Shown here: piece after piece, positions 6,859 to 63,508 of the stretch
Layout: each line of letters opens with the position of its first letter
How positions within the stretch are numbered: position 1 is the first letter of the stretch
Assembly: GCA_040954595.2 (NCBI GenBank)
Contig: CM082594.2
Span: 6,209,962-6,273,961, forward strand
DNA: 64,000 nt
Source: Balanoglossus misakiensis
Taxonomy: Eukaryota; Animalia; Hemichordata
Direction: 5' to 3'
The notes under the pieces: model-generated
What the model saw: the letters and a program-made list of their open reading frames with translations, nothing else
The model's database searches: none
Told to the model about the DNA's origin: nothing
Position numbers and translations under genes: made by a program

Positions 6859-9800
6859 ATGGCGATAATTGTTCGGTGTTGCTGCTGTAACATTCGAAGT
6901 GGTGCTATCATTACGGCCATATTCACAATGGTAAGTTCTCCAATCACACTACATTCTCAGATTATGGTTCGGTGGACGGTGCCGCCATTTTCCTTTAACC
7001 GGGACATCTTCTGTGTCATTCGTTATTAGTGATCGGCGCTCTTGACGCAAATGTTATGATTATTTACATTCAATGAAAACCACCCTAGGATTCCTGCGTC
7101 ACAACCAAATATGCAATACTGATTGCTTTTCTTGAAGGTTGAATACAGTTCTGCGCAAATGGCTGCAACAGGCATGCTTTAACGTGCAATATCGAGTTGA
7201 AAGCCAATATCATTATCCTGTAAATATCGATAAAATATTATTTGGCACTTTTTTCCAAGTGACTCCACACCTCCGGAGAATAGGAACATCGAAGACCGCG
7301 CATCAGTCTACATACATGTACATATAGTTGTCATCTGAGCTATATCAAACATTTCTGTAACACCAGTAAAGTCATCGCCATATTAGTGACCAATTAATTT
7401 TTTTGGTTTACGAAGAATGGACTGTTCATGGTTGGGTAAATTCGGTTATTCAACCCATGCTACAAGATTTATTATCATGTATACGAATAACACAGGCTAC
7501 TTTCTATCTCACAACCTTCGCACTTTTATAATGGACAGACGTTAGTCGTCATCAGTTACGCATTTGTGTGATCGTTAAATGTGTTTGAAGATTACAAAAG
7601 ATCATGGCAGTGCGAGTTGTAGAGATGAGACTCCACCCTGTCTTTAAATGGCCCCAACAAAAGAGTAGGGTGCGCTTTTGTGTTGAGTCTCTCGGACTGT
7701 GCTGATAAATGTTTATAGAGGCCGACCACGCCATTCATTTGAGGACAGTGATTTTATTTGTTGTCGGAGATTGTTTTTGTCCCGCTTCTTCTCGTTAGAT
7801 TACCGTTCATGCGATCATCATCAACACTTGCGCAGAAACGTCAACATCTGATCGGAAGGAAAGTTTCCGTTTCAAGTTCATGATTTAACGTCAGCTGATA
7901 ATTTTTCAATCATTAAAAAAACATTTGGCCTTATCCTACTATTGAACTTGAAACAGACCAGGTTATGGTGACCTTGGGGGAAGAGAAGTTCACGTAACTT
8001 CCCACTGCTTATTCTGAATGGCAATTAGCCATGTCCTATTATTTGGCTGACGAATTGTGGATGATAAATAATTATTTAAATTAATAGGAATAATTGTGAA
8101 ATTATACATGCAGTAATAATTATACACATTCGTCTGTTTTAATTCCAGATCATAGCACTGCTCAATATTGGACTGTACCTCTATTTTACCATACAGTACA
8201 AGAGCATAGACGACGGTAAGGCAATACTATCCTAGTGACCAAATGTACGCCAGGCACAATATCTTACCGACGCTCGCTATGGGATACTTCCAAACTACAC
8301 TATGAATGTCTGTATACTTCTCAAGATAGCATTCTCATTGTTGCGCTGTCGACTGCCTCGTATACGCGTTCATTTGAAATTATTGAAGCTTAAATTTTAC
8401 TTTAACTGTACAATGTTTGAAAGTGAAGGACGCGTAATTTGGTATATAGGGCTCAAGTTCAAGACAACACAATGTGTGACATCCACACTGAATGGAGTTC
8501 AGGACACAAGCCGATGATTTGGGGTTGGTGGGGTTCATTGTGTCGAGGGCGTTGGCATTGACCCGCTGTGCTTGAGTTCGATTGTCTGTCGCCGCACAAA
8601 AGGTGTGGCATTGTGCCACGGATCCACGGAGCGACCAAGCACATCTCAAGTACAAAGAACCGCTTAGGGGGAAGGTTGACTCCATATAGCGGCAAATTAG
8701 TAACACAATCTTAACCAGCAGTCCACCGCAGTGGGATGAAACGTTCCGTGTCAAATTTGCCTGTGCTGAAATATGGGCGATGGCATGTAAAATTATTGAC
8801 TATACGCCCTCACACTTCAAACATGAGCTAGGGCTTTTGTTTTTCCACTGACCCGTGGGTTTATTAGCTACAGGGTCTATGTTTATAAACAAATGCCATG
8901 ATTTCAATTATTCAAATACTACACACATCCGATCCACTGTGAAGCCCTTGAAAATGGTTACTCTGTTTTAGCATGTTTAGAGAATAGAGAAAACATGCTT
9001 TTCCGTGGCTAAAATTCCTGATTAATCATAAACCGAAAAAAGACAGACTAAAAAACATCTGGATACACATTCATAGATTCCATGAAGTAAAAATGTCCTT
9101 ATACTACAAATTTTATGGACGGGTTATCAAAGCTCTTGACTTTTTTATTTTAATTGCATTTCAGGTTACCTGAGAGTACCTTTCACTGTTTATCCTACAA
9201 TGGTCGCAGCCAGCGCAGTGCTGTTTCTGTTATCACTGGTTCTATTAGTAGGCCTCACAAAGGTAAAAATGTCAAAGTTCATTTTTTCAAACTACTTATT
9301 AAATTCTTTGAGACAAATACATCAAAATCTACAATATATATGCCATCGCCCATATGTCCCATCACATGAATTGTTTTTTCTATAGGATGAACACAGAGCA
9401 CTGATGCCATGGATTTTGTACTACATCCTGTACTTGCTGTTCGAAGGAGCAACTGTCTTTATTCTCATATTTTTCTATGTGAGTTTCTATCTTGATTTTT
9501 TGCCCTCAACATTAGCAATTTGTTTTAAATGAATTGTTCGATTCTCACGGCAATTATATGTACCATCAATGACCTAAGTCTTTTAAGTGAGTGATTATTT
9601 CAATACAAAACAATGACATTAGTCTCTTGCAGCTATTAACTAGATTTATTTCCTTTCCAGGACGCGACTGCTCTCAACATATTTGCTTTGGCGTGGTTTG
9701 TATCAAGAGCAGTTCTAGGGGTAAGCAATAATTAATTACTGTGATTAGAGTCCCCAGAGGCTGTGAATTATTGCCATATACACTCGACAACAGAAAACCC

Positions 9801-10095
9801 TATAACGACTACAAGAACCAGAAGTAAAAGCCAGTGAGCCAGTGCCACAAGTCAACGGAAACTTCCACGTACTTGGAAACGGGTATATTTTTCCAACTAC
9901 AATCTTGACTTCACTGACAGAGATTCGTCTCTTATGTTTACCTCCAAATCAGCTTTACTCAATCATTTGCGTTGTTTCGCAATACCAAGAGCTCGGAGCT
10001 GGAAGAGGGAAAAGTTTCGACTACCAGGCAGTAAGTCAACTAAATTCATCAATTACCATTTTTTTTTCAAACTTTTGTACTACTGCTGCTTAGCT

Positions 10096-10166
<71 letters not shown>

Positions 10167-10472
10167 CTTTGCTTTTAACAGGAGCACGATGACACAGAAC
10201 GACCACAGTCTGATGAGCGACGGGAAAGCACCAAGATCGTGGTCACCGGCCCCAACTCTTACAATCACTCCGGCGGCTACTACGTGTACGACGGAAACAC
10301 CGGTCGCAACTACTCGTCCAGGTCCACGCTGCCGCAAACCGAGGACATCGAGCTGGAGGAACGCACCACGCAACGAACGTCACGACGCCCTCGCTCGCCC
10401 AAGATCGTTCCCCGCGAAGTGCAGACGCCGAACACGTACAGCAATCGGTACTTTGAGGACGACGTGTTCTAG
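6859..10472 (+). CDS. Four-transmembrane protein, array paralogue 1 (~252 aa; TMEM217/Pasiflora/LAPTM4-DUF4728-like)
   Basis: Exons 6859-6930 (MAIIVRCCCCNIRSGAIITAIFTM), 8149-8215, 9165-9262, 9386-9478 (DEHRALMPWILYYILYLLFEG...), 9661-9720 (..AWFVSRAVLG), 9953-10030 (LYSIICVVSQYQELGAGRG..), 10182-10472 (..TYSNRYFEDDVF*). All GT-AG and in frame, with four hydrophobic segments. Family name is from recall, not a search. Confidence 0.88.
10095..10166. repeat. (TTTA)n microsatellite
   Basis: Visible repeat in intron 6 of paralogue 1, just upstream of the acceptor. Confidence 0.97.
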
Positions 10473-13077: not shown

Positions 13078-16000
13078 ATGGGGACAATGCCGCTGATTAA
13101 GAGATGTTGCTGTTGGGACGACTTGCGGAGTGGAGCGCAGGCGACGGCCATTTACAGCATAGTAAGTGAATTGAAAAACCTTTTACAAACATTTCGCTGC
13201 CTACAACAAACACCTATTGCTCTTATCCTTTGTGGTCTCTGAGAAGGTTTTGACAAACACGTTTGCACTGTTACACCTTGTCTCACAAACCCCAGCTAGG
13301 AACCTAGTCCAATGTATTCTCTATCCCTTTCTCTCCTGTACTATTTCGCTCTCTCTCTTTCTCCCTAGTTCAGAACAAATATCATTATCAGCATTTTTGT
13401 GAAACGAGGTTGATGGAGAAACTCGATCCTGCTTTGGCGGTCAGAATTAGTAAGGACAGTTTCCCTCACATGGATTTTTTATGCCTTGCAAACGTTATAA
13501 TCACTCAACATACATTTAAAATTACAGTGCGCGTATATATATGTACGTACGTCAGAAGTGACCGGTAATAGGCAAAACGTGGCCTGAGCTCGCGATCGTC
13601 CAATCGTGATTGACAGTTCATGCCATTTCGGCGTTGTGAAGACGTAAGTCATACTTGCTGCAAAGAATGAAAACATGACACTCCGCACATGTAGGGACAA
13701 AAAGTTTGACAAATATATATGTGCGCAAGACATACTTTCGCATAAACATCTACGTCGATAACTAGGTCGAAAATCATTGGCAGTGTTTACTTTTCAATGG
13801 CACACAAAATCAAACAACGGCAGCGTAGTTGTTTTACCCTGAACTATTGATGTAATTCACGATTTGAGTACATGTTTTCATGTTGCAATTAACCCAGAAC
13901 CAGCAAGAAATCCACATCGCTTTACAAATGCATTGATTACTTCAGTGAAAACTGCAGGTAGCCAGCGATACATTGTACATGTACATGTATTTAGCGTGTT
14001 CGATAGCGAGGACAAGTTAAAAGCAAATTCAAATTTACTTTTTTAAGTTAATTTGACTGTGAAGTCGCCCTGAAGTCGGCATTATTGTGGTGGGGTTAGT
14101 TTTAGTTTGTCCGTGACTTAACGATATGCTGATCGTTTATTCCTTCCTTCATCCACTCCTTCATTCATTCATTCATCCATTCATTCATTCATTCATTCAT
14201 TCACCCATCGACCTAAATGACATGTACATATGTCAAGGCAATTGCGAGTTATTTACAAATTACTTTGGCTCCGAGGAGGATAACCTTCTCACATTCTTCT
14301 GCTATATTCTTTGAAATGTCCTTTTTAGTGGTATTATAAATAACTCACCAATTGCTGTTACACTTTCAGCTGTTTTCGCTGGCTTGTATATTTCTATTCA
14401 TCTACTACCTGAGCTTCTACGGCAAGAACGGCGAAGAAGGTAAATCATGTCAATTGGAGAGTGTTGGCCGACGTGATTATGATAACAGAACCACCTCGCC
14501 AAGACTTCTTTCATAGTTCAATGATTTACTAGGATTACATTTCGCGATTGATCGAATCGAATCGACACGAGCTTCAGTAAATGACGTCACGATTCTCTGC
14601 TGGAGCCGTTTTCTCTATTAACAGATAAAACGCGGGAGGCTATACTTTGTCTTGGGAATGTCAAGAAACAGCAACTAGCGATGAGATACATTAGACAACA
14701 CAGAAAGTTATCCCATTCTTTTAAGAGAAATCAATTACTTACGAGAAGTAATCAGCTCCAACATTCCTACAATCTCGTGACAGTGTTTGATTGCCCAATC
14801 ATTTTTACCTTCAAATTAAACACCTAGTCATGGACAGAAGAACACAACCGTCGCTCTAGGATATTGAATAAACCACAGCAGCTGTGGCAATCTTGTAAAT
14901 GGACATTTTAAATGGCGAAGTAGATCATTTTGAATCTTTAGTCGTTTATTCCCCCTACAGAAGTTTACGGGACAGTTTACAAGATTTGGTTCGGTGCAGT
15001 GTTCCTCTATGCAATGGTGTTCATCGTTTCTATTATACTGTTAGTGGGAGTGCAAAATGTAAGTTGCTACTATCGTTAAAGTTGGATATTATTCCTTCGC
15101 CAAATACATGCAGAAAAAAAGAAATGGTTCATTCTAGCTGCCAAGACCTTCAGCCACTTGAAACCTCGATTGTTAGAGAAATTATGTTCATTGTACTGTC
15201 AATTAAAATTAAAAGCATTTAGGCCTAATTAGCAACTCCACAATTGTTGTCTAATTACATGCTATTGACATTTCGAATATTTTCAATATTATATTACCAT
15301 CACTTTCCATCATTGTGGAAAAAAGATGAATTGGTGAAAATATTGGTGAAAAGTGCGTTATGGTCTCTAACAAAGACACTTTCATGAACAAGAATACGAA
15401 AGGATTTGCAAAGAAATTTATGAATATTCACACACATGACAATTATGGAAGAATACCGACCATAACAATTCATAATGCCCCCAAAAGCATTACCGTTGCT
15501 CCACTAATGTCTTCCAGTTGTCTTTTATGTCATTCAGCACACTTATATTGTCAAAGCGTTAAGCATTTTCAAATATTTTAACTTTCACTCTTCGTTTCAT
15601 TGTGTCTTCTTAGGACCAGAAAGCCTTGTTGTTGCCGTATATTTGCTACATGATATTCTATATCTTCGTTGATCCTGCCATCCTTATTTATGTCGTTCGT
15701 GCAACAGTAAGTAAAGATTATGAATACAATTTTCGCTATTTGTATGGGCAACTTTGTCTTTTCCATCTATATTCGTCAAGGCATATGAAGCAAATACCAG
15801 AAATGGGAAATGATAAAAGTGTTCAGAACGGGTCTTTCTTTCTAGAACTTCTTCATCAGCAGTACTTAACTAAGAGAAGTGAAGGTAGTCTATTCAACTC
15901 AATCACATAATATTATATTCCGACAGGGTATAAGTGAAGTTAACGCATTTAACATTACATTCTGTATTTTACGGATAATAATGACGGTAGGTACAATTAA

Positions 16001-17269
16001 TTTTTTTTATTTATGTTGTTTTGTTTTTGTGTTTGTTTTGTTTTGTTTTGTGTTTGTTTGTTTGTTTGTTTTTTGTAAAACTGTTGCAATGTTCAGAAAG
16101 ACCTCTTCAAGGCTAAAGTTATGTAAAACGGCGTCAAAGAGATAATTGCAATATAATTACTAGCCATTTAGCTACCAAGGCAATGCACCACGTGTATCGT
16201 ATTTATTGGGGAAAGAGTGTTTCCATGGGAGTGTGTGATTATGTAACATGGACATAACCCCTACCCTGGCATAAAATTGCGTTCCATCAAACAACTTAAT
16301 AGATTGTGAATTTAAAACGTCACTTGCGCCATTTTGGCTTTATAAATAAATGCCCCTTAATGATCGGTCGTTTAATAACTTATCTAGTCTGCTGTGAATT
16401 TTCCATTAATATCGGGGTAGAACATTTAAAATCACATTTGGTGGTATCTATCTTTGACATTTAAATGCTATTTCCCATTACAATATGACAGTAAGAACAT
16501 TGATGATAAATTTTCATTTCATACATTTGAAATGTTTTATGAACTCCATAGACTCATTTGTTTGCCTTTAATTTCATTTGTATCCGCAGTCGTGCTGCGA
16601 GTTGTGTGTTATTTCCCAATATCAGCTGCTTGCAGCCGGGAAAGGACACAAGAATCAAACACAGGTATGCCTTATTATTCTATCTAATCACGTGAGACGC
16701 AGTGATCAGCAAACATGATCATGTGGCGGCGCCCTTCGTACGTGTCCATCATCATTTAAACGCTGGTGATGAGGGTAAACCTCCAGTGGTTGCGTTATGG
16801 TATGGGGCAATAACTGATTTATACAACAAAATATGTGTGTGGGTAAATTCTCGTTCTCTTGCTATTATTACAGGATGGCCCGATTCTGGTCGAAACGCAG
16901 GCATCGTTTGCGGCATCGATAGATGCATCGCCGGCAGCAACCTGTGCGGGTTCAGTCGTAGGCGATTTCACACCTGCGGTGGTACTACCCGACATCGAGC
17001 TAAACCAATCTGACTTTCAGTCGCCGCCGTCAAATAGCAATCTGCCGTACGGTGGTGAGCGCCCCCGTCCCAGAACAGCGCCAGCAAAGCTAAGCATGGA
17101 AAATGAAACTTTTGACACGCTGTTTTTACACGCTGCACATATTGAGATTAACACGGGGGGTGCGCAGCCTCAAGGGTCCACGGAGAAAACAGGTGCAGCG
17201 GAATCGACTCCGAAGGTGCGAAAATCGAAAAAATCGGTAAAACTCTCAGACACATTGTACCATATTTAG
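13078..17269 (+). CDS. Four-transmembrane protein, array paralogue 2 (~291 aa)
   Basis: Exons 13078-13161 (MGTMPLIKRCCCWDDLRSGAQATAIYSI), 14370-14439, 14961-15058 (..VYKIWF..), 15614-15706, 15927-15986, 16590-16664 (SCCELCVISQYQLLAAGKG..), 16874-17269. Intron phases match paralogue 1. Confidence 0.88.
14140..14202. repeat. (ATTC)n imperfect microsatellite
   Basis: Visible repeat. Confidence 0.85.
16015..16075. repeat. (TTTG/TTTTG)n low-complexity repeat
   Basis: Visible repeat. Confidence 0.85.
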
Positions 17270-18363
17270 AATCGAGACATTCGCAGAGAAACACATTATT
17301 GCAAATTTTACTTGCGGAAAAGTTTTGGGATTAATTGAGTTTATTGTTTTTTCGTGTACAGAGGATTATGAGACATTGTAAATATTGAAATGCTTTCTAT
17401 TTTGTTATCCACTTTAATTAGTGTAGACTTTCACAACAGATGATAACCTATTTCAAGTTTTTGTAACTACATGAACGAAGGGAAGTGATGTATTTTATTT
17501 TCAGTTTCCATGTTATATGTAATGAAATACGCTGCAAAAACTACAGGTCAAGGTCAAATTCAATATAACATTGCCGCTCCTTAATAATTATGTATTCTTA
17601 TGATGACAATACTCAATTACAAGGGGTAATTAACGTTAAAGTCCCTTCCCATTTTATGACCGTGAGTTTATGTAATCTTTATGTAATCATCGCGTAGATT
17701 TATATGCATATCATTTAATTATATTCAAACATTCGATCGAGTTTAATCGTTGACAGTTATTCTCAGCTCGAGAATAACTCATTCTGAGACTTTTTGTATA
17801 TCTCAGCCCGAGGCGGTATAAGAAAGAACATTGATTAAAATGTCCTGATAACACCATATTACATGTACATGTACCTGCATGGCCATTGCATGTCCCACAC
17901 TATCATTGGGTATCACTACACGCAAAGGGAGATACGGTATCATTTCTTTGCTATTGGTGACTGGCTTCATGTACCCCTGGTGACGCATGGTGAGATTTGG
18001 TGACCGTCGGTGGTTTTGGTAGTAAGTATAGGTAAACAACGGTGTACCTTTTGGAGAGTGTAATTCACGGAGGGCATTGAAAGGTCAGCCTACACTGTTG
18101 TTTTCTCGCAAGACATCATAGCAACTGTGATTATTATAGTTATCGAGACACTGAAAACCGTGTGAATAATAACTGCGCAATATATAACTGGATGATAACT
18201 TAGAATAAATCCGCGTACAGTACTTTTAAATCTTGCTGTTTTCTATCATGGCATAACCTACTCTGCTGATCGTTTTCCAACATTTGGTTTACAATATTGA
18301 TTTGATCATATGGAGACCTGTAAGCGCTAAAAAACGCACTAACGTTTCGGTGTTTCTTTCTAG

Positions 18364-18642
18364 GCATCTCACGCCATTCTCGTGGACGAGTTTTGGCCGA
18401 GCGTACAGATGACGTCACCACGCACAAAGATGGACGCAGCGACCTCGACGACGGACCTGCTGCACGAAACCATGAGGCAGCTGGCGGACAAGATGCAGGA
18501 GGTCAGCCGAAGGACGCAGAAATGCATCACGACCATCGAAGACGTGGCCGACGAGCACAAGTCTTTGCGACAGGAGGTGGAATTGTTCACTCTTGACCAA
18601 GGCAAGACGGGAAGGTGTTGTGGGAAAAATCGAGATTGCTAA
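18364..18642 (+). CDS. Unassigned coding-like exon (predicted coiled coil), possibly an extra or alternative 3' exon of paralogue 2
   Basis: A strong acceptor (TGTTTCTTTCTAG, ending 18363) precedes a GC-rich open frame ASHAILVDEFWPSVQ...LLHETMRQLADKMQEVSRRTQKCITTIEDVADEHKSLRQEVE in AT-rich surroundings. The phase-0 start is compatible with paralogue 2 donors. The 3' end is uncertain (donor at 18576, or stop at 18642). Confidence 0.5.
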   Translation, partial: ASHAILVDEFWPSVQMTSPRTKMDAATSTTDLLHETMRQLADKMQEVSRRTQKCITTIEDVADEHKSLRQEVELFTLDQGKTGRCCGKNRDC

Positions 18643-20234: not shown

Positions 20235-23200
20235 ATGCCGATCGTAACACAGTTCCTATGTTGGAGCAACACCAAGGATGCGACGCGTGCAGTCGCCATG
20301 TACGGTGCGGTAAGTATACATCTCAGATTTGCCTCTACCAAATTTGACAACACAACACTTGCATCAACAGTTCCCAGCACAGTGTACATGTACATACCCA
20401 AGTTACTAACGAATTAATCGCTAGCCGAAGGTTGCAGACTATGGCGTCGCCGTCGATATATTTAATACCAAAGTTATCAAAATAACAAAGGCATATCGAC
20501 TGATCCAGGGTCGCCTGGTGTGCAGCATAATAAAATTTAACTGCGCTTTGCAATAGCAGACAGAGTTGTTGAATATATTAATTTACACCAATTTTCGATT
20601 AGATTACATAATTTCTCTCGGTATATACCAGCAGAGATTAAGAATCTACCCATATTAAATAGCGAATCAACAGGAGTTGATGCTCGTAAACAATGCCACA
20701 GATTTCGATCAAGAAGTGTTATATTGAAATATTAACGATCAGAATTGGTTTATGTTATTGATTATTTCAAAAATTGAGGCGTGATCACACCATGGCAACT
20801 GTGGCTATGGTAATTATAATTTTGGCAAGTACAAATTCGTCGGTCGGATTTCTCTTAACTGTACGCGTTAATGAAACTAGTTGTAGTATGCAACCATTTC
20901 AAATTGCCCAATCCATCATAAAGAAGTAGCGACGGAGTTTTATTTACTCATCAAATAATGAGTATTTTCCATGCCAAAGTACGTGCATACGCGTTCTGTG
21001 GCTTTAAAACGTGAAGTAGCCACTGTATTTTTTAAAACGTCGAAAATTATTTGTACTTTTTAGGGTTTCCTCACACGGAAACTGGAACTGTTAACATGGT
21101 GTCCAGCAACAGTCATTTTGCATATTTCAATCTAGGATACAACAGGTCATAAAGACACATGTGTCCCCAATACCCACCAGACAAATGTCAAATAATGACA
21201 AAATGCACGGGACCTCAACTTGCTCTACCACGCTGCCATTACTTTCAAACATTAACTACGCCGACGGCTATTTGTTTGCAGTAAGGTCGAATAGAGTTGC
21301 TGGTACATATGTGCGTAGAATATATAACAGGGAGAGAGTTGCTCTGAAATTAACCAATTTAAGGCGATTGAAAACTGTATTTTGGCGAATTTTTGTCTCT
21401 AAGTTTGTCAGTTGGAATCTAGACACTTGCTTCGATTTTTCAGAGCAGTTTTCGCTTTATTCCGAAAATGTAAAAAAAAATAATTTCGCTCTCAAGCTTC
21501 TGAAGTTTGACATCATTACATATGATATGCTAATGTTCCTATTTTTGTCGTACTTATTCTTTAAATTAATACTATTGTTATCACATCTTCTTTTTACTGG
21601 GTGGAGTCATTTTGACCTATTTAAGGGTGCGGTTCGCTAAATGCTATGTTTTGATGATTATATGTGGCTAACATACGACAAAAATCATGCAAAAGGAACT
21701 ACTTGATGCGTAAAATAATATTTCGAAGGCAGTACCCATGCTATGCACACCACGAGACTGTCCTATAAGCGACACGCCAATTTCCATTATGTTATGAATG
21801 CACACCATAAAAACCATTTTTAATGTTACTTGTTTTGCAGCTATTGTCGTCAGTGTTCTTATTCTGGTATCTCCATTCTATCACCATCAAACTTGGCAAC
21901 AAACCTGTCGACGGTGAGTCTACGATTTCCAGTCAAATTTGACTATGACTGTGGTTACTGAGTATGGGCATTGTGAGCACTACACTGCAAGATTAATATG
22001 AATGATATAAAAAGATAACTGAATATGTTTTTCTATAAGTTATTTTCATCCGAACTACCATTGAAATCTTTATCACGTTAATCCATGTGGTTTTAGATAA
22101 AGCTTGTGTGCCTTTAAATGACAACTGACGTTCTTCTTTGTTTCCGTAGAACACCATGACACTCTCTACAAGGTATGGTTTGCCATGTTATTCGTTTACT
22201 CTGTATATTTTATCGATTCCTGTATTCTAATGGTCGGGGTCGAAAAGGTAAGTGAGAAACATTACCATTCTAATGTTTTCAATTTTATTTATTTACTTAC
22301 TTATTTACTGAGCGCCCGAAGTATTTCGGGATATAGATGGGTGTATCATAAAAACTGCTTCGTCGCATTTTTTTTTTCGATTATAGAAGAATGTAAAACA
22401 GAAAATTATATATATGTTGCCTCGTCGACTCATCAGCGCGAATAATCCGAATAATCATGTAGTTCTGGGCTGCTAAATGTATGTTGCCTTGGTTTTGACT
22501 GGTCATGTGCTGGCCATTTAATAGACATTAAGACCAATTAAAATTGGCCAAGGCCAACGTTAATCTACCTCTGCTTGTTATTTATAAGTACCGTGTTGTG
22601 TTTCTATACCTATATTTACTGATTGTACGAATATGCTATTGTTAGCCAACCCTGGGCCATTACAATACCGACCTAAAAGATATACGTTTATACTTGTAGA
22701 CGCGAAAGCTCGCGTCGTAGCTAGCGTATGGGGCCTCTTATAACTCGAACACTGTGCATTTAGACACACGTATCGTATGTGTGTCGGTTGTTGTTCGGTT
22801 AAACCTGACACAAAAGCGACAAATTATGAACTATTGTGCACCCGCATCAACTGAAAACGACCCCTTGACCTCTGTGCATCAGACACACTGTCGGATTAAT
22901 CTCAGGGAAGACCGCACAGCTCAAAGGTCTACGGTGTGTGCAAATCTGTTATTTAGCATTGTATTTTATGCATAGGCACCCGTGTCATTGCATGTTATAT
23001 TCCGAACCAGATTGTGCTTTATAATTAGAGTGCGATTACGATATTGTAGCTGTAACTGATTTCCAATATGTTTCTTTATGTCCATTGCAGTTTCTTGTTA
23101 TACCCCATATAACAAACAAATGGCCAGTAATATATTTGTAAACGATCATTATTGCTGTTGACAAATGAATTTAAGTCCATAAATTTTACTGCGTTTCTGT

Positions 23201-24038
23201 ATAAACGCGTTTACATGAAGTAATTTGGGCACTTAATCGGCCGAGGGGAATACACTGACGATTTTCAACAGAAGCGTAACGAGCCTTATCTTCAGACGAA
23301 ACAAAATTCAGTTGGAATGATGGAAATACCGCTAATGGAAACATTTGGCCGTATTTCAGCCCTATGTGATGTCAATAGTCTGTAATGAATCCTTGACAAA
23401 TGGTAGTCTCAAAATAGCATTTTCGGGTAAATTAACGTAAAACTACACATATAAATGGGTTGGATGTGCGTTTAAAGTGCATTTAACACAAATGGACTGC
23501 AATTGTAGAACTACGTTAATGTCGCCAAAAGATACATTGAATATAAACGTCACCAGTTTTACGCTCATCATTATGTAATAACGAAAGGTGCACGAATACT
23601 GCTGTTGCTCGATATAAATAGCAACGATCTCACCGCGGTCAAGTCCATTTAACTGTAGTTTCGACCAACCTCGGGTTATATACTTCGCGCTTTACAGTTT
23701 TGACTGATAGTTACAGGGAATACAGAATGGGATAAAATGGCTAAAATCAAATCTTATTCTGTTTAATTACATGTATTCTGATACTGTAATCTGTTTTGTA
23801 CATTTTTCTGCAGGGTACGCGGTTCTTGATGATAAACTATCTGATATATTTAATATTGTTCGAACTTATTGACACTGCACATATAAGTTACCTTCTACTC
23901 ATCTATGTAAGTTTTAAACGTTTCTTCTAATTTCATTGCATGTATGTATGTATGTATGTATGTATGTATGTATGTATGTATGTATGTATGTATGTATGTA
24001 TGTATGTATGTATGTATGTATGTATGTATGTATGTATG

Positions 24039-24070
<32 letters not shown>

Positions 24071-27000: not shown

Positions 27001-29094
27001 TTTGGTATTGTTTGCTTTGTGATGTAAATTCGTTTCCTCCGTTCTACACGTGCACGGTGTGGTTCGCACGGCCCAGCATGGCACTTGATGCAGTGCGTGG
27101 TATCGCAGGTTGGAGCTTTACCCTGCGGAAGGCATATTTTATATTATATTATGATATAAACAACAATATTCACCTTGTAGACCCACAGAGGTGTAATCGC
27201 TGCAAATGTCCGCAGCTTGCCCGTCGTCTCCTTCAGGAAATACGTGACTCTGTGTTGTAATCTAACCCGTGCTTAGTCTAGTCGTTCACTGTACAGTCGC
27301 CTGGGAGTTGGGTCGTTTACACGGCGATCGCCGTGTAAACGACCCAACTCCCAGGCGACCCAACACCGTGCACCGATCCCAGGCGACTGTGGTTCACTGT
27401 AAATCTTACCTGTCGTTGGCTATCAAATACTTCAGTCGAGCAGCCCCATTCCTCTGACTTGCCTGGTGCTTCCTTCACTTGTCGGGTTCTCCGAGTCGTT
27501 CTGTTCTGTGTACAGACACTGGACACGCTATTTCGTTGAGATGAATGTTAGATTGTTCGACAGTCTGCATAGAACTTTGTACTTCCAGCAAAAATAGCGT
27601 GAATCTGTCCATTTTGACGACACGGATTGCAGCACGCCCGACCACGGTGAAGGTCCACCAGTCAGCAACGATAAAGTAGTGCGGCGCGCCGTTGGTAGCA
27701 CTGAAAGTTATGAATCACGTCGCCTCATAAACATACACAGGCCGGCGTCCCATCCATCGGCCGTATGTCACACCAAAAAGTTACGTATCATCGTACCCGA
27801 ATATAGTGCGCCGTCGCCGTTCTGTCTACCCGGCGTGAAAAGGAATGTAACAATCGGACAATGTTTTTTGGTGAACGCAGTCGATAACTTGGAACACTGT
27901 ATCTAATGTTTCCGGTGCAAAACAAAAATCACAAGCTTCAACCGGGAACTAATAAAGTAGTATAAATAAATAATGTGAGGAGGGGCTTCGTGTTTCGAAC
28001 CACGATTATCCGTAGATCATGTCTGGGCACTGTCCAGCTGCAATGAGTAATTAGCCCGGTGGTCGTGTTGTGGGTTATGTTGGCTGAGGCCAAGCCGACG
28101 CAAAAACAAAGGCAAGAAGCCAGCGCACGGCTACCGGACTAAAAAATTACAGCTATCTTTTTTACAGCCCAGAGGGATCAAGGTTTTCTTCAACTTGAAG
28201 TAAGGATATAGCGTTTAAAGTTATCAACTGTTATATTTTGTCTGTATCCTTTCTTTCACCATCTTTAAGTTTAATTTTAATACTTTATTTTTTTCATATA
28301 TTTTGCGCTAAGTGCGCAAGATTTGTAATGTGCTAAGCATTTTTATTGGCATAGATTGGAAATTACGACATCGAGGTAGACGGGGCCACTCCCTCATCCC
28401 AGGACGACGTTGACTGGTTACCCTACGGCCAATATGCAGAGACGGGTGGACTTCCGGGATATAACAAGAAGTACCCTAAAGCGAAAAGTGGAGGCAAAAA
28501 GTTGGATTCCAATAAGGAACCAGTGCTATCAATTGACGAATCCTTTGCCGCTGAGGGCGGGGCGTACAATATAGGGATTCAGACGGTAATCAGTGAGCTT
28601 ATACCGTTTGGTATAAATGGGGGAAATCTTCAAAATTTTACCAAAAAGATTTTTCCTGTTTTGGATTGGAAACTGAGACATTAACATACATAATTTACTT
28701 TCAATGTGAAAATATATTTAACAATAACATAGTTCGGTTCCCATGTAATTAACCTGCAGATTTTTGGCATACCTACTTACGAAATTTATTATTATCTAAA
28801 AATAACTCAACAGTTCAATGCCATTAATAACCATTTTATGATAATTTACATGTCTGTTCTTTTCCACACATATAGGATGTCGAAGCTGTGGTTCCCGACG
28901 TTCACGTGTCTCCTGGCCGGGAGAACGAGCGCATAGCACCAGCGAAGAAATCGTCACCACCACCACCCCCGCCTCGACAGAAACCACCGCCACCATCACA
29001 ACAAAAACACCAGCAGACAGTACAGTCGGCACGGCCGCGGACACCGCCCTCCCCGCCACCGCGATCTCTACCGATAAAACCCAGCTACAACTAG
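20235..29094 (+). CDS. Four-transmembrane protein, array paralogue 3 (long isoform ~312 aa with proline-rich tail; possible short isoform ~175 aa)
   Basis: Exons 20235-20309 (MPIVTQFLCWSNTKDATRAVAMYGA), 21841-21913, 22150-22247 (..LYKVWFAML..), 23814-23906, 24349-24411, 24855-24941 (..VLAEYQ..). These continue either into 25351-25389 (EASNTRPIETIT*) or into 28355-28585 + 28876-29094 (..SSPPPPPPRQKPPPP..PIKPSYN*). Confidence 0.82.
23940..24161. repeat. (TGTA)n microsatellite
   Basis: Visible repeat in intron 4 of paralogue 3. Confidence 0.98.
27284..27400. mobile_element. MITE-like element with 14-bp terminal inverted repeats, flanking direct repeat and internal perfect palindrome
   Basis: ACAGTCGCCTGGGA (27293-27306) pairs with TCCCAGGCGACTGT (27377-27390). 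GTTCACTGT occurs on both sides (27284-27292 and 27392-27400). 27296-27359 is a perfect 64-bp palindrome. Confidence 0.7.
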
Positions 29095-30572: not shown

Positions 30573-32985
30573 ATGCCGTTGTTAAACTCGTTTCTGTGGT
30601 ACAAAAACACGAAGGATGCGTCGGCTGCTTTTGCCAAGTTGGGGGCTGTAAGTAGTGGTTCTAAATTGCACGCTCGTTCTTGTTCTGCTCAAAGGGGACT
30701 AAAGGTTCGCCATGTGGCTATTGACGACCACATGAAATTATGGAAGGGGCTATCCTGCTTTCGTCAGAAGAGTCACTCGGTTTCGCTTTTGTTCATGGGA
30801 GCTCCTTATTGACAGACAAGAAAACACATTTATACCCCTCCTCGGAAAAAAAACCTGACCAGTCCCTAAGCAAAACGACAACGCCACATCCTGCATGCAA
30901 AAAAAACAACAGTACGTACTTTCACAGCATCGGTACAGTAGAGGGCGTTACAACCGGTAGTATCTCTAATACATGTACCTTTTGTGACATAACTCCACAG
31001 CTGATGTCGACTTTGTTTATTCTCATTCACATCCACCGGTTGACGATTAGCTTGAAGAATGACCCCGACACAGGTAAGACTTTTCTGTACTTCTTATACA
31101 CCGTTGACTATAGAGAGTACCGATTCGTTTGATACAACCCCAGTAAATTAGGTCTAATAGAGATAGACAATCATTTCCAAACTTACCCAGATATTTGCCC
31201 AGATGGTCATTACTGTACTCCTGAGGACGCCCTTCCAAAACATGGCGTCATCTCCAAGACAGCTGATCATGTCTTTTGTATATTCCTATCTTGCAGGGCC
31301 TTATGCGGTAGTATACAAAATATACTTCGGAATGCTGCTCGTGTACTCTATGTATTTCATCATCAACTTTATAACGATAATGGCTACCAGTAAGGTGGGG
31401 ATTCGATCACTGTGTTGTGTGACTGGTGTTGGTCACACAAACTCTTATATTCCAAATGCACTGTATTTCTATGTTTTTTCTGGGTTTTGTGTGTGTGTGA
31501 CAATATTTCGCTTCACTTGATTTGAACCAAAGAAAATCAGCTTCGCTCTCCTCACATCGGCAGAGGAATGAATACAATATCATCAACACATACTCAGGCA
31601 TTGGCCTAAGCCAGCCTCTACCGCCAAATGCAAACAGGCCCTCGTAACAATTGGATTGGAAATACCTCTACTCCTTACACAAACCCAGCAATTCGGGGCT
31701 GTGACGTGTACCTCTTGTAATTATAAGCTTACGGTGCCAATGACTTCACAGGTAGGTTACTCAGTCTTTGTAATACACATGTATTCCGCGACTGAATCTT
31801 ACTTAACACTCTGCCGTTTTGAATTGTTTGCAGGGATCACGTTTCCTCATGATGTTATGCCTTGTCTATGTGGTCATTTTTGAGATATGCGATATTTCTG
31901 CATTCAGTGTGATCGTCTGGCAATTGGTGAGTTGCTTTACAAATAATTACCATATAAAATTATGATCGTCAACTATCGAAGAAAATACGAATGTCTAATC
32001 CCGATAGGGCGTTGATTATGTATCTCACAGGGTTTCGGAAACAGAGAACGACTTGAATTGCTCCTGACGCTACTGAAGCTGGCGATAAACGTGAGTAACA
32101 GCTGAGAAGCGTGCTTTTGATTTAGTGGTGTCATACATACGAATTCACAAATCCTCTGCAGATTTTCCTGTCCTCCTGACCGACATGTCTGTCAGTCTCT
32201 CTGTCTACCTCTCTCTCTCTCTCTAGCAATTTCCTCTGCATGACATGTAAAGACATGTTTTTGTGTGATTTTTCCCGCCTAGGCCACATTTTTCTTCGTG
32301 GTTCTGTCTGAGTATCAACACACTTCAATGCTGGTAACACGTGCTAAGAAGGTAAGATTCGGGACGCGGGATAAAATAACCAGAACCTTCTATACAATAG
32401 CTCAAACTTGAAGTTCAACATTCATTCACATGTTAGTTCCAAGCCCAATGACCAGAGTATGCATTTATTCCTGATTGTTTGGGGTGCTTTTTTTAACTTC
32501 AGAAAGGACCAATTTCGTCACACACAAACACTTACTCCCCTCCCACACACAAATATGTGTTGCACCTATTTGTATCACATGTTTTGCCTTGCACTTAGGC
32601 GCAAAAAGCAAAAGAAAAGAAACCAAAAGAAGAAAAAGCGATGAAGAAAGATAAAAAGTCAAGCGGTCGGGCTTCTGAGGACGACATTTCTTTGAACATA
32701 ATCACGACAGAAGTACAACGTCAACAGAGTCATGCGGAGTCAAACCACCTGTCCATCAAGCGAGAGTCATTACCTGGCGATGTTGTCACTATGGAGACGC
32801 CCGAGCATCCGGGAAACTATGAGGGCGGCCATGTTTCTGCAGGAACCGGGAAAAGGAAGCCAAGTGTTGTGTCATTCAAGCCAAACGACGACAAAGCGTC
32901 GGTGATGACGCCGTCGGTAAAAAGCCAGAAATCCAGTGGATACGAAAACCAAGGTTTCCATACAGGCAACACTTCATTGCATTAG
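30573..32985 (+). CDS. Four-transmembrane protein, array paralogue 4 (~284 aa)
   Basis: Exons 30573-30647 (MPLLNSFLWYKNTKDASAAFAKLGA), 31001-31073, 31297-31394, 31834-31926, 32031-32090, 32283-32351 (..VLSEYQ..), 32599-32985 (Lys-rich start, ending ..GYENQGFHTGNTSLH*). A 5'UTR exon probably ends at the donor at 30278, with its acceptor at 30530. Confidence 0.88.
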
Positions 32986-34020: not shown

Positions 34021-36963
34021 ATGAACACGAAGACAACAAGTCGCATGTGTGCCTTATACAGTGCGGTAAGTTCTACTGACACACATTTCTACCTCCCCCC
34101 CCCCCATCCCCAAGAAAAGGAAACTACATTGCACACATTCCTTTATATAAGGGCCATTTTCTGTGGTTCTGTACACAGCTGCGCCATTAACAATTCCGTC
34201 AGGCTTTTTTTGTTCTCGGCTTGTCTATCGATTTATGTGACTAATGATCGCGCTATTTATAGATTTGTGTGAATGTCTTGCCTTTGCCGTGCAAGAAGCC
34301 CCTATGTCTTTAATCACGTACATCTTGGAACGCCCCTTATATTCCCTGGCGTCACCAGAAAAGTATATCAAATTGGCAAATAAGCAACAGTGCCAACACT
34401 TTCCACGCCCGAAGGAAGTTATACTATTGTGTAATCTGTGCACGTGGTTGACCTAAATTGTTTGGAGTCACGATCTTCGCGTGTTTTATAGTTGAGTCCG
34501 GTCGGTGGATACCAGTATGTCACGCGTAAGAATTGTTCGCTGGCCTGCGCTGTGATAAGATTCGTCTAATTCAAGTCCTTGAGAAACCCTGATGACTGTT
34601 CGCTGAGGACAATCTATTTTTAGCGAGTATTATAAGTGTGAATATTGTTAATCTGATTCTTCAAAAACCGTCTCTGTCCCTACCCACAGTGCCCTACCCT
34701 TTTGTAAAGGCAGATGACAGATAGGAACATTCTGACAAAACAATGGAACGCCGCCATTAACATAATAATTGATTCTATTGTTATGAAAATGAATGTAACC
34801 TTTTTTCCTGAGGAGTTCACCGACTTGACTTCTTTTTGTCTCTCATGGTCTCAGCATGTCTCAGACACGTCATTGATGACGCGTATGCAGAACACCTGCC
34901 AAATAAATCATTTACAACTATCAAACACAACCGGCATCATTCATAATTAAACTCCAGTATATACACGTTACGTATCATCATGACGTTTTGAAGGTGCACT
35001 GTGTAATTCTCATGTCGATATTCTTTCAGATGACCTCGATTGGGTTCATATTTTTCTACGTTTTCATGCTGACGAGTCCGGGGGATAAGAACCCTGCAGA
35101 TCCGGACTATGGGACAGGTAAGAAACCAGTGTGCCCGGTGTAAATAATAACAGCGTTATAAGATATGGTAATTTACGAGGTTTGCACGGTCAGAATTTCT
35201 GACGTGGACTGCCTGTGCAGTGTATCATCGTTAGCAAGGGGAATACCGGGGTCTTGGCTTCCATATGTGCATTCTTCCAGTTAATTTGATCGATGTTATA
35301 TTTCACAGAAAAGGAAGGCGACATTCGCTATAAAGTATGGTTTGTCTTCGTAGCGGCGTACTCCATGTACTTCATTACATCGTTTATGCTAATTAACGGA
35401 ATTGAAAAGGTGGGTGTCGTGCTGCTGGCTGTTACAATAATTTACATATGTGGTGGGGGTGGTGGTGGTGGTGGTGATTGTGTTGATGGCAAAACAAGCA
35501 AACCTTAACCCTCGAGAAAAATGTTCATAAGTGACACTTGTATCTTTAATTTACAACCAACAGGAAAGTCCTGGCTTGATGCTTTACTTTCTGATATTCC
35601 TTGCTTTATTCATCGTTTTGGACGGTGGACTCAACATTTTTCTCGTGATGAAGGTAAGGGTTTCAATTGAGAGAACTACTGAAAATAAAACAGATGTTTA
35701 AAACAATAATATATAACCGTTTGGTGATAAATTGCATTCAGGCAAACTTCGGCACAGCTGAGAAAGTAAAACAAGCAGTAACTATTTTTATTTCGTTTTC
35801 GTTTACTATAATTACATTTATTGCATTTCAATTGTATATCGCAGGTTTTCAATGCAAGTCTGCATTTAGTTATTTTTTTGTACGTCTATATCACATATGC
35901 TTAGCCGTTCGCGTTTTTTTCTTTACAGAAAGGTGTGTTGGCTGTTGTGTTTGAATTCGCACTCTTCCTGGCCACTTTTATAGCAAACGTAAGTCGTGTC
36001 TAATCTTACCATTCTCCGAACTCAACATGGTGGTTTGACTTCAAACACTGGAACGGCCAACCAATGCTATCGAATCTGTGCTAACTCACCATAGGACAAA
36101 CATTTGAATATCGTCTGTTTGAAAATGGCGAACAGGTGTCCGATCAAAACACAAGAATGTAAAGGTTACTCGGGGGTCATGAAAATGGCCCCACGGTGAC
36201 GTCATATTTAATTTTTAAACAGAGAGTACTTCACTTGAGCAGTCTATACATGTAAGAGCTTTCATTCGTTACACCTAAGTAAAACCTGCTTAGTCTAATG
36301 CTGTTTTCACACACTTCAGATTTTTGTATTTGTCGTGGTGCTGTTGGAATACAAAGCGACGAAAATAAGACGTTGGGAAGAGTCGATTAATCAGGACCAC
36401 AATAAAATGGTAAGTCGGTCAGCAGCTGCATTTGGATCCCAGTTCTTCAGTTTAAAACCAATTTAATTCGGGTTAGCTTTCTCACCTGCATGGGGGTTGA
36501 TTTTGTTGGGGAGACTAGAATTTCTGTGAGACTCTAAATTCTTTGGTCAATGCCCCTTAACGACGATGTGATGCGAATCTGACGTTCTCCGGCGAGAGTT
36601 TGTGCGAGCCATTCCAAGCGAATCGATAGCCAGACTATGTCTACTGTGGTCGACAAGCGCACAGTATGCGCAACCACAGTACAGTAATTTCTTGTCTTTT
36701 TCCGCCCACAGAATCACTTTTTTGAGGAACACCTGCAGCCGGGTCAAGCAGGAGTCGACCTGAACCATTTCATGGAAGACGAAAAGCAGAATCATAACAA
36801 GGGCGGTGGCGAAACGACGACTTCGGTTAGATTTGCAGACACCATCACGGTGACGAGGTCCAACGGCCCGGTGGACGTAGGCAGAGCGCAAAGGAACCAC
36901 TACGAAGAGAGAGCACACACTTACGGCATGGAAAATGCGGGGAGAAACGCTCGGTATATCTAG
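34021..36963 (+). CDS. Four-transmembrane protein, array paralogue 5 (~241 aa; start codon uncertain)
   Basis: Exons 34021-34065 (MNTKTTSRMCALYSA), 35030-35117, 35309-35409 (..RYKVWF..), 35564-35653, 35929-35988, 36320-36409 (..VLLEYK..), 36712-36963 (..SVRFAD..GMENAGRNARYI*). Confidence 0.85.
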
Positions 36964-38690: not shown

Positions 38691-40761
38691 ATGCCGATTA
38701 TGTACAGCTGCGGCTGCTGCAGCCTCAAGGCGGGCAATATGATCTGCAGTATTCTGGTTTTGGTAAGTTATACCCTAGAAGTACCATTATAGATACGTGG
38801 TTATAGTATTTTATAGTCAGGGCAGTATCAGTCTCACATCATGCCAATGATAACGTCTGGCAGTAAAATGAATCCCTGAATTGCATTTGCCAGTGTGTAG
38901 CGAGGTCCGTGTCTCTGTCGACCAGCATAAGTCATTATCTGAATGGATTCAATTTGTCGTACCGATTTTGATACGGCAATCGCCACATTATATGTCTGCT
39001 ATTCACCGCAGAATTATAACATGTACGATTCGCCGCTCTTGCGGATCAATGTTGATCGAATAAGGCCATTCACGATCTCGTTCGCCTCAAAGCATTCGAT
39101 CGACGGTTCTATACGATCAACCCAGCAATACAATAGAATCCAGCTACTGGTGTTACGTACTTAAGCATTTATCTGGGTGGGGTCACTGGCACAAAACTCT
39201 CGGTCGTCTCGTCAGAAAGTGTTTTTCCTTATTATTCCCCCGAGTGTGGCTATTATAATTGATATTATGAGACGCTTGATGAATATATAGTATGATTAAT
39301 AGCGCCAAATTGCTGTTTATTACCCCCAGCTTGCCAGCGTGCGCCCGGTCTGTGCGTACGCTAATCACTCTCGCTGAACGGAATGTTTACGTTCGCCATT
39401 TTGAATATACAGCAACCTGTTGACAATGGGCGCTGACTGCATGGCTGGTTCACGTCAACAGTGACCCTCCCAAGCATGCACGCATGCAACATTTAATGTC
39501 TTAATTTACGGCTCACAATTAAAATCGTCATATCCGATCGATTTTAAATTTTATATTTCAATCGTCAACAGATTGAAATGGTGATAAATCTCATTGTATA
39601 CGTCTACGGGGCGCTGGAGCTGTTGATAGATAAACCGACTCTGAGCGAAAACGTATACATCGGTAAGTACATAATAGCTCCCTCTACGTTACAACCAGGA
39701 ATTTCGGATGCTAGCAGGCATGTACTGAACTGATTTTACAGACTTACAGCATTTTGCTTGCAATCAGGTGAACTTTTGGTCATCTATTGACGACATGCTT
39801 TCCTGTAAATCGTTATCATCCCTGCGTGTGACATATTCCACTTTCTGTAGTTCATTCTTAATTGCCGCCTTTTGTAGTCATTACTGATATGCAAGATTTT
39901 CTGTCTCTTCACAGGAATGGAAGTGGCGTTCTACATACTGATTGGGTTATTTGTAATCGTTATGATTTGTACCAGTCTGTACTTCTGCGGTGCCGTCAAG
40001 GTAATAGTCTTTTTATTTCCTCGTTGAAGCCAAAATAATTGGGACAGTTGGAACATGGGAAAGGCAATAAGACTATCCTAATCACAATGTCCATCGAAGT
40101 GTTGTCATTCACATGTATTTTTCACCTTTCAATTTTAGAACCACGCCGGTCTGTTGGTTGGTTGGATCGTTACTCTTGTGTTGTACATGATTCTCGAATT
40201 GGGCGGCATGGTGTACATATGCTACGTCTACCACACATACATGGGGGTAAGTACTGCGGCAAGTGCAAAAAGAAGAAATCTGAATAGTTCAATTCTGTGT
40301 ATGTTCAATTGGGAGGAAATAGAGAGATGAGGACCAGGCTAATGAATAGTCTATTTTACTTCCAGGGTTTAGACTACAGCATCTATTCACTGGCTCTGAT
40401 TATCTGGTATTTGGCGAGGACCTTTTTACACGTAAGTACAACAAATAATGCATCTCTGTGATTTCCATGCAGCCTGCAAGGCCTATACATGTACAAGTAT
40501 ATCCCCTTTCAGTTTTTTTTTTTTTAATCAAGACTACTTGATGTTTCAATATGCGAGAAGCAGGGGTGAAATCATCAGTTGACTGTGGCAAGATCAATGA
40601 GAGGTTCAACTGGGAAAATGGTCAATTTCAATTTTTTTAAATTTCAATTTTAGATCCTTTACCTTCTGTGTGCCGTGTCCCAGTATCAAGAGGTGTCCGC
40701 CAGAGAGAGGAAGATTCGGCGTCACCGATTGGTCGAGCGGGAAAGTGAGAGAAGAATGTGA
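38691..40761 (+). CDS. Four-transmembrane protein, array paralogue 6 (~176 aa, short tail)
   Basis: Exons 38691-38762 (MPIMYSCGCCSLKAGNMICSILVL), 39572-39662, 39915-40000, 40139-40246, 40366-40431 (..IWYLARTFLH), 40654-40761 (ILYLLCAVSQYQEVSAR..RRM*). Confidence 0.87.

Positions 40762-42453: not shown

Positions 42454-63508
<21,055 letters not shown>

What the first reader, a model, noticed from the sequence alone, without database searches (positions are those of the whole stretch)
6859..40761. Tandem array of six divergent tetraspan membrane-protein genes with a conserved core and unrelated tails
Seen: six co-oriented genes whose transmembrane exons are mostly missed by ORF calling. They share intron phases (0,1,0,0,0, then 0). 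Exon sizes are nearly fixed: exon 3 is 98,98,98,98,101,86 nt; exon 4 is 93,93,93,93,90,108; exon 5 is 60,60,63,60,60,66. All have four TM helices and a post-TM4 [S/A/L]-[Q/E]-Y-[Q/K] motif. All frames are intact despite low protein identity and no evident intron similarity, which suggests an old expansion maintained by selection. From memory, the N-terminal MP/A-x-x-x-x-CCC...SG..AIY and C-terminal CVISQYQE..GRG resemble arthropod Pasiflora/DUF4728 septate-junction tetraspans. The TM4 WFVSRAVL / WYLARTFLH resembles vertebrate TMEM217. Inference: an uncharacterised lineage-specific family of junctional proteins or transporter/channel auxiliary subunits, diversified through the cytosolic tails. 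This is the best candidate for an undescribed system in the window.
Basis: partly seen in the sequence, partly recalled or inferred. Interest (0 to 1): 0.85.

Follow-up and report, generated by a model that had tools for sequence, protein, structure and literature searches.

The report
Old acorn-worm pasiflora-like gene cluster
Six neighbouring spliced genes in what is likely an acorn-worm genome encode four-helix membrane proteins related to the known pasiflora family, which seals cell junctions in flies; it is a real, old gene cluster, and its five divergent members likely act as membrane scaffolds whose partners are untested.

Summary
The six genes are real. All 35 introns are GT-AG, the frames are open, and phases and exon sizes are as reported. 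Five of six have collinear orthologues in other acorn worms. All six belong to one homology group: 50-134 bits against a profile of 111 outside homologues, shuffles at most 7.7. The family is described. The Saccoglossus orthologue of gene 1 (XP_002739793.1) is listed in the Pasiflora paper's supplement, and gene 1 has both family motifs (PW, VxSQYQ). Genes 2-6 lack PW; genes 2-5 form one clade (97/98) with only acorn-worm rows. Accession order and shared contigs suggest the cluster is shared across acorn-worm genera. Genes 2 and 3 have longer tails than a seven-exon reading gives. Most likely these are cis-acting scaffolds in junction-type membrane complexes (inferred). A TMEM217-like role has only weak, sub-cutoff support. 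I found no RNA data. This scan noted pasiflora arrays earlier in other DNA. Verdict: divergent variant of a known family, interest 0.3.

The parts
6859..10472 (+). Gene 1, pasiflora-family tetraspan, 252 aa. Exons 6859-6930, 8149-8215, 9165-9262, 9386-9478, 9661-9720, 9953-10030, 10182-10472. Carries PW and VxSQYQ.
   Evidence: Collinear with Ptychodera XP_070536377.1 (core 84%, tail 73%) and Saccoglossus XP_002739793.1 (57%/56%). Both orthologues pass the DUF4728 cut-off.
13078..18642 (+). Gene 2. Exons 13078-13161, 14370-14439, 14961-15058, 15614-15706, 15927-15986, 16590-16664, then either 16874-17269 (stop; 291 aa) or 16874-17215 plus 18364-18642 (366 aa, ending in a coiled-coil-like segment). 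Has VxSQYQ; PY in place of PW.
   Evidence: Orthologues in Ptychodera (XP_070536375/376), Glandiceps (XP_077993203) and Saccoglossus (XP_006822859). The 18364 exon matches their C-termini (tblastn E 3e-18, 1e-4 and 0.19).
20235..29094 (+). Gene 3. Exons 20235-20309, 21841-21913, 22150-22247, 23814-23906, 24349-24411, 24855-24941, then either a short last exon 25351-25389 (175 aa) or 28355-28585 plus 28876-29094 (312 aa, Pro-rich tail).
   Evidence: The Ptychodera orthologue XP_070536373/374 matches 28355-28549 at 45% (E 8e-14) and supports the long form. The Glandiceps orthologue XP_077993797 is 174 aa, like the short form. The 28355 acceptor scores weakly and the 25351 acceptor strongly.
30573..32985 (+). 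Gene 4, 284 aa, the most divergent. Exons 30573-30647, 31001-31073, 31297-31394, 31834-31926, 32031-32090, 32283-32351, 32599-32985. Lys-rich and Ser-rich tail.
   Evidence: 50 bits on the outside profile. Groups with gene 3 and its orthologues (99/93) on a long branch. No orthologue found.
34021..36963 (+). Gene 5, 241 aa, short N-terminus. Exons 34021-34065, 35030-35117, 35309-35409, 35564-35653, 35929-35988, 36320-36409, 36712-36963.
   Evidence: Ptychodera orthologue XP_070536359.1 (core 61%), which also has a short N-terminus.
38691..40761 (+). Gene 6, 176 aa, six exons, short tail. Exons 38691-38762, 39572-39662, 39915-40000, 40139-40246, 40366-40431, 40654-40761.
   Evidence: Saccoglossus orthologue XP_002739792.1, also 176 aa, core 71%.

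Best explanation
This is a tandem cluster of six pasiflora/DUF4728-related four-helix membrane proteins, likely older than the split between acorn-worm families, that likely work as non-catalytic scaffolds packing side by side in the plasma membrane of their own cell. Shown: gene structure, homology, a four-helix core with short loops, and conservation of five of the six genes in other acorn worms. Inferred from Drosophila Pasiflora1/2: gene 1, which keeps both family motifs, is a structural part of septate-junction-type sealing complexes, acting in cis, with large single-pass adhesion proteins bridging the cells. Inferred more weakly: genes 2-5 (one clade) and gene 6 are old duplicates that kept the helical core, lost the PW motif, and gained different cytosolic tails (coiled-coil-like, Pro-rich, Lys/Ser-rich, short). 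These tails would give each copy its own sorting or binding partners in different tissues.
For: Gene 1's Saccoglossus orthologue is one of the two Saccoglossus sequences in the Pasiflora paper's supplement. That paper defines the family by four TM helices, PW at TM3 and VxSQYQ after TM4, and proposes cis ribbon formation; gene 1 has both motifs. DUF4728 matches 92 of 98 aligned homologues at E<=0.01. All six models score 50-134 bits on an outside profile. AlphaFold2 of the gene 1 orthologue core with a 98-row alignment gives pLDDT 93, pTM 0.86 and four long helices. The Atlas structure search puts a DUF7027/DUF4728 cluster first, TM 0.87. The membrane folds among the top VIA-align rows are four-helix accessory or scaffold subunits: Kei1 (Z 12.4, rmsd 2.9, 133 aligned), an Fc-epsilon receptor chain (11.8, 3.0, 139) and uroplakin (11.4, 3.1, 131). 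Predicted outer loops are short, about 17-25 and 7-12 residues, with no N-glycosylation sequon, too small for adhesion across a junction.
Against: There is no expression, localisation or interaction data for any of the six. Five of six lack the PW motif, and genes 3-5 also lose VxSQYQ. Orthologues of genes 2, 3, 5 and 6 fall below the DUF4728 cut-off (23.7 bits or less against 26.7). Drosophila Pasiflora1 was not in my tree (no hit carried its short motifs), so one-to-one orthology with gene 1 is untested, and acorn worms have further paralogues outside this array (P0011, P0006). Other fly members have other roles: Ikebana/CG15098 acts in cell competition. Fold Z-scores are under the bar of about 13 for helical bundles and are tied with soluble bundles.
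Confidence: 0.5

Rival explanations
1. They are LAPTM4-like endosome/lysosome adaptors that sort or degrade membrane cargo through their tails.
For: Pfam Mtp (LAPTM) matches 5 of 98 homologues at E<=0.01 and the gene 2 orthologue at E 0.015. The Atlas structure search gives an Mtp cluster at TM 0.63. The Ikebana preprint says the family extends to LAPTM4A/B. A Ptychodera paralogue outside the array is annotated LAPTM4A-like.
Against: The Mtp scores I saw for array orthologues are far below cut-off (15.4 against 25.2). Only the long gene 3 tail has one L/PPxY motif, against 32 of 143 other representatives, and no tail has a Yxx-hydrophobic or acidic dileucine pattern. That PY motifs drive LAPTM sorting is recalled. 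Pasiflora1/2 sit at the plasma membrane.
Confidence: 0.2
2. Genes 2-5 are TMEM217-like auxiliary subunits that escort or stabilise a transporter, channel or receptor, such as the sperm exchanger SLC9C1 or the neighbouring receptor guanylyl cyclase.
For: Pfam DUF4534 (recalled to be the TMEM217 family) is the top hit of the Glandiceps gene 2 orthologue (E 2e-4) and hits P0153 (0.0085) and P0113 (0.0095). In alignment A4, 2 of 5 clade members but 1 of 93 others hit it at E<=0.01; these rows are related and the comparison was made after seeing the result. TMEM217 binds the voltage sensor of SLC9C1. Kei1, an enzyme's accessory subunit, is the top fold row.
Against: All DUF4534 scores are below cut-off (16-21.5 against 29.2), and 3 of the 6 clade orthologues scanned show no DUF4534 hit at E<=1. 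The Atlas feature search with the gene 3 orthologue lists no DUF4534 cluster among the rows shown. The TMEM217 paper calls it absent from invertebrates. The cyclase is only a neighbour.
Confidence: 0.15
3. They are surface modulators of signalling or cell-fitness labels, like Drosophila Ikebana, and are not tied to junctions.
For: Ikebana carries Mtp and DUF4728 domains, is predicted to bind Flower and lowers Flower-LoseB (passages). Knock-down of four wider-family genes in fly glia did not impair viability.
Against: Gene 1 keeps VxSQYQ, which the paper reports for Pasiflora1 orthologues; most wider-family members share only PW. Nothing here links the genes to Flower.
Confidence: 0.12
4. Some of the models are artefacts or pseudogenes.
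For: No RNA evidence was obtained. Gene 4 has no orthologue and a long branch.
Against: Open frames, shared phases, collinear orthologues for 5 of 6 genes, and gene 4 at 50 bits against shuffles of at most 7.7.
Confidence: 0.03

Closest known systems
Pasiflora family (Drosophila Pasiflora1/Pasiflora2, CG13288, CG15098/Ikebana, Fire exit; Pfam DUF4728 PF15860; Deligiannaki et al. 2015, PMC4582180)
   Same: Four TM helices with no signal peptide, a larger first loop, similar length, and a Cys-rich N-terminus in genes 1, 2 and 6. Gene 1 has PW and VxSQYQ, and its Saccoglossus orthologue is in the paper's sequence list.
   Different: Six copies in tandem. Genes 2-6 lack PW and genes 3-5 have degenerate VxSQYQ. 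Genes 2-5 form their own clade, whose orthologues share an invariant YKxWF at the start of TM2. Tails are unrelated. No functional data exist in acorn worms.
LAPTM4A/4B/5 (Pfam Mtp PF03821)
   Same: Similar four-helix fold (Atlas TM 0.63) and weak profile matches in 5 of 98 homologues.
   Different: Below cut-off; PY-type motifs are nearly absent from the array's tails.
TMEM217 (SLC9C1 partner; PMC12557800; Pfam DUF4534 by recall)
   Same: Weak DUF4534 scores in three orthologues of genes 2 and 3.
   Different: Below cut-off; reported absent from invertebrates; no direct sequence comparison could be run.
Tetraspanin, MS4A, uroplakin and Kei1 four-helix proteins
   Same: Bundle topology (VIA Z 9-12); the family profile hits uroplakin 1b at E 8e-6 over the N-terminal half.
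   Different: No large second extracellular loop; Z-scores are within the range common for helical bundles.

Membership tests
Pasiflora family (PMC4582180) | Four TM helices, no signal peptide, about 170-260 aa or more | tested here: met
   Four hydropathy peaks in 6 of 6 models; four helices in the AF2 model of the gene 1 orthologue core. The signal peptide was judged by eye from polar, Cys-containing N-termini, with no predictor.
Pasiflora family (PMC4582180) | First extracellular loop larger than the second; both termini inside | tested here: inconclusive
   Loop windows are 17-25 against 7-12 residues in 6 of 6; membrane orientation was not predicted or measured.
Pasiflora family, gene 1 | PW at the start of TM3 and VxSQYQ after TM4 | tested here: met
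   Gene 1 and both orthologues carry both motifs.
Pasiflora family, genes 2-6 | PW at the start of TM3 (shared by the wider fly family) | tested here: not met
   Absent in genes 2-6 and in all seven of their orthologues checked; gene 2 has PY and gene 6 GW. They are reported as divergent homologues, not as pasiflora proper. PW occurs in 106 of 152 proteins held.
Pasiflora family, genes 2-6 | VxSQYQ after TM4 | tested here: inconclusive
   Exact in gene 2, one residue off in gene 6, degenerate in genes 3, 4 and 5.
Pfam DUF4728 (PF15860) | Score above the gathering cut-off of 26.7 bits | tested here: inconclusive
Gene 1 orthologues score 30-32 bits (met). Orthologues of genes 2, 3 and 6 score 10.7-23.7 or show no hit, and the gene 5 orthologue shows no hit. 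Gene 4 is untested.
Pasiflora/DUF4728 homology group | Detectable homology over the whole four-helix core | tested here: met
   50-134 bits on a profile of 111 outside homologues; shuffles at most 7.7.
Pasiflora1/2 (septate-junction core components) | Localisation at septate junctions and need for barrier function | not testable with these tools
   No expression or imaging data.
Pasiflora1 orthology group | Groups with Drosophila Pasiflora1 in a tree | not tested
   Pasiflora1 was not among the fetched proteins, so it is missing from the trees.
LAPTM4/5 (Mtp PF03821) | Mtp score above the 25.2-bit cut-off; PY motifs in the tail (recalled) | tested here: not met
   Best array orthologue 15.4 bits; one LPxY in one of the eight window tail forms.
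TMEM217 (DUF4534 PF15049, link recalled) | DUF4534 score above the 29.2-bit cut-off | tested here: not met
   Best 21.5 bits.
TMEM217 | Testis expression and binding to the SLC9C1 voltage sensor | not testable with these tools
   No RNA runs were listed and no SLC9C1 sequence was held.

The most novel reading that the evidence does not exclude
The gene 2-5 clade is an acorn-worm subfamily that links pasiflora proteins to vertebrate TMEM217. It supplies a set of tissue-specific auxiliary subunits for voltage-sensor transporters or receptors, for example sperm SLC9C1, which would overturn the view that TMEM217-type escorts arose only in vertebrates.
Probability: 0.08. Interest if true: 0.7.

Novelty: new variant of a known kind. 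Interest (0 to 1): 0.3.

Why it matters
The pasiflora family is functionally known almost only from flies. A deuterostome cluster that has kept five or six very divergent copies, apparently across acorn-worm families, gives a natural series (same core, different tails) for asking what these proteins bind and whether septate-junction scaffolds diversified by tissue. If the weak TMEM217 lead held, it would also give the evolutionary origin of a sperm-motility factor. As it stands it is a gene-family expansion of a described family, and this scan has noted similar arrays elsewhere.

Tried and rejected
No whole genome is held for this window. Aligning all 36 exon pieces to two anchors misplaced the TM exons and was not used further. 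The word-based search with the gene 1 orthologue core found only the two orthologues. Single-sequence AlphaFold was poor (pLDDT 51) and its fold search gave only generic bundles. Foldseek against PDB with the good model gave no match at E<=0.001. No solved pasiflora, LAPTM or TMEM217 chain appeared; that is not evidence about the fold. The complex prediction of the gene 1 orthologue core with the gene 3 orthologue core gave no verdict (score 0.00, alignments not used). No gene 4 orthologue was found among the best 150 of 230 representatives or in a word search with three of its exons (3 hits among 2027 candidates, lengths up to 368 aa); this is weak evidence of absence. A seventh copy in the window was sought and not found. 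I first read 18364-18642 and 28355-29094 as separate genes and rejected that after the orthologue matches. Repeats in the array are microsatellites and one 64-bp palindrome, unrelated to the finding. Literature: no listed title described this cluster in searches for DUF4728 (3 papers), pasiflora (43 papers, 38 listed), pasiflora/septate junction/tetraspan, hemichordate + septate junction, DUF4534 (0 papers), TMEM217 + LAPTM (4 unrelated) and acorn worm/tandem/LAPTM terms. The library lacks most subscription papers, bioRxiv supplements are closed, and file 2 of the Pasiflora supplement was not searchable.
Full report
1. Observation. I read 1-41,999 directly and built six + strand gene models by coordinates. 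All are open from ATG to stop, 35 of 35 introns are GT-AG, and phases are 0,1,0,0,0,0 (gene 6 has five introns). Each protein has four hydrophobic peaks, and core identity is 13-40%. There is no DNA similarity between the genes and no seventh copy in the window. The tails do not match each other.

2. What it is. The 96-residue last exon of gene 1 found two full-length proteins among 36 candidates, from Ptychodera flava and Saccoglossus kowalevskii. They are collinear with the model and both pass the Pfam DUF4728 cut-off. The window is therefore most likely from an acorn worm, closer to Ptychodera (core 84%) than to Saccoglossus (57%). A profile of these two cores plus four first exons found 230 representatives at E<=1e-3, of which the best 150 were returned. 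Named ones include amphioxus, sea urchins, Lingula, a midge and a scorpion. I built a second profile from 111 of these with near-complete cores, after removing the 12 orthologue sequences then known. It scores genes 1-6 at 122, 134, 89, 50, 74 and 80 bits, while 200 shuffles per gene reach at most 7.7. The search profile contained four window exons, so the homologue set is slightly biased towards the array, but the gap is large. The six genes are one homology group. In a 98-member alignment, DUF4728 matches 92 members, DUF7027 64, Mtp 5, Tetraspanin 4 and DUF4534 3 at E<=0.01.

3. Orthologues and age. Gene 2 has orthologues in Ptychodera, Glandiceps and Saccoglossus; gene 3 in Ptychodera and Glandiceps; gene 5 in Ptychodera; gene 6 in Saccoglossus. 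None was found for gene 4. In Ptychodera the accessions of genes 3, 2 and 1 run 070536373-377 on a 40,130,686-base contig that also holds gene 5 (070536359), and second copies of genes 1, 2, 5 and 3 lie on a 488,843-base scaffold. In Saccoglossus, genes 1 and 6 have consecutive accessions on a 206,916-base contig. In Glandiceps, genes 2 and 3 share a 24.1-Mb contig but their accessions are not adjacent. This is synteny inferred from accession order and contig length, not read from the assemblies. A paper passage dates the Ptychodera-Schizocardium ancestor to more than 370 million years ago (PMC11175523). That Glandiceps belongs to the same family as Schizocardium is my recall; on that basis genes 2 and 3 are at least that old. 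In a 47-row IQ-TREE tree (15 array rows plus 32 chosen representatives; Pasiflora1, LAPTM4 and TMEM217 absent), genes 2-5 and their orthologues form one clade (97/98), genes 3-5 a subclade (100/99), and genes 1 and 6 separate branches. A single origin of the whole array is neither shown nor rejected (p-AU 0.38). The 125-row quick tree agrees on the gene 2-5 clade.

4. Model additions. Two stretches that looked like separate genes are tails. The exon at 18364-18642 matches the C-termini of the three gene 2 orthologues, and 28355-28585 matches the Ptychodera gene 3 tail directly after exon 6. Both join in phase 0 with GT-AG sites. The shorter ends may be alternative last exons; the Glandiceps gene 3 orthologue is short. 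RNA is needed to decide.

5. Known family. Deligiannaki et al. 2015 (PMC4582180; I read search passages, sections 9 and 15, and part 2 of supplementary file 1) describe Pasiflora1/2 as core septate-junction tetraspans. They define PW at TM3 and VxSQYQ after TM4, report Pasiflora1 orthologues in molluscs, echinoderms and hemichordates, and list XP_002739793.1, the orthologue of gene 1. Gene 1 has both motifs. Genes 2-6 and their orthologues lack PW, and genes 3-5 have degenerate VxSQYQ, so I call them divergent homologues and do not file them as pasiflora proper. The Ikebana preprint (10.1101/2024.04.13.589362; passages) links the family to LAPTM4 and to cell competition. The TMEM217 paper (PMC12557800; passages) shows binding to the SLC9C1 voltage sensor and calls TMEM217 absent from invertebrates. 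The tardigrade preprint (10.1101/112664; passages) only names DUF4728. All other papers were seen as search listings only.

6. How it likely works. The AF2 model of the gene 1 orthologue core is a confident four-helix bundle (pLDDT 93) with short loops and no glycosylation sequons in them. I saw no catalytic signature. The nearest solved membrane folds are accessory or scaffold subunits, at Z-scores that soluble bundles also reach. The simplest reading, taken from the fly work, is a cis-acting scaffold in a lateral-membrane, septate-type complex for gene 1, with the duplicates using the same core and different cytosolic tails for other tissues or partners (confidence 0.5; every functional step is inferred). 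The rivals are LAPTM-like lysosomal adaptors (0.2; Mtp below cut-off and almost no PY motifs), TMEM217-like auxiliary subunits (0.15; DUF4534 at 16-21.5 bits against a 29.2 cut-off in 3 of 6 clade orthologues scanned, and the family link is recalled), and Ikebana-like modulators (0.12).

7. Novelty. The family and gene 1's orthologue are in print. I found no description of the cluster in the searches named under Tried and rejected. Earlier notes of this scan report pasiflora arrays in other DNA (unchecked AI notes, seen after my reading was formed). What is new here is a cluster that appears stable across acorn-worm genera and a motif-less gene 2-5 subfamily.

Noticed in passing
window 1-5919 (+): 3' part of a multi-exon gene that reads like an arylsulfatase (recalled resemblance). 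One exon (2896-2997) hits Pfam Sulfatase weakly, E 0.04, below cut-off.
   Followed up: partly
window about 43,900-63,574 (-): Receptor guanylyl cyclase gene next to gene 6: ANF_receptor domain (E 2e-32) in 62786-63574 and a cyclase piece (E 6e-6) in 44836-45120. No link to the array was tested.
   Followed up: partly
window 28168-28199 (+): A 32-nt AG..GT exon-like piece with good splice scores just upstream of the gene 3 tail exon. It ends in phase 0 if entered in phase 1, so it does not fit gene 3 exon 6; unexplained.
   Followed up: no
window 27296-27359: Perfect 64-bp palindrome (two 32-nt arms, no spacer) in the long intron of gene 3.
   Followed up: no
window 18364-18642 (+): The last exon of long gene 2 encodes a coiled-coil-like segment conserved in three acorn-worm genera, while the rest of the tail is poorly conserved. 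No Pfam family reaches its cut-off.
   Followed up: partly
window 10182-10472 (+): The gene 1 tail is well conserved (73% with Ptychodera, 56% with Saccoglossus) and ends in the same six residues in all three species, which suggests a binding or sorting motif.
   Followed up: no
window 20084-20347 (+): An 87-codon open frame overlaps gene 3 exon 1 in another frame; no Pfam hit. Probably chance.
   Followed up: partly
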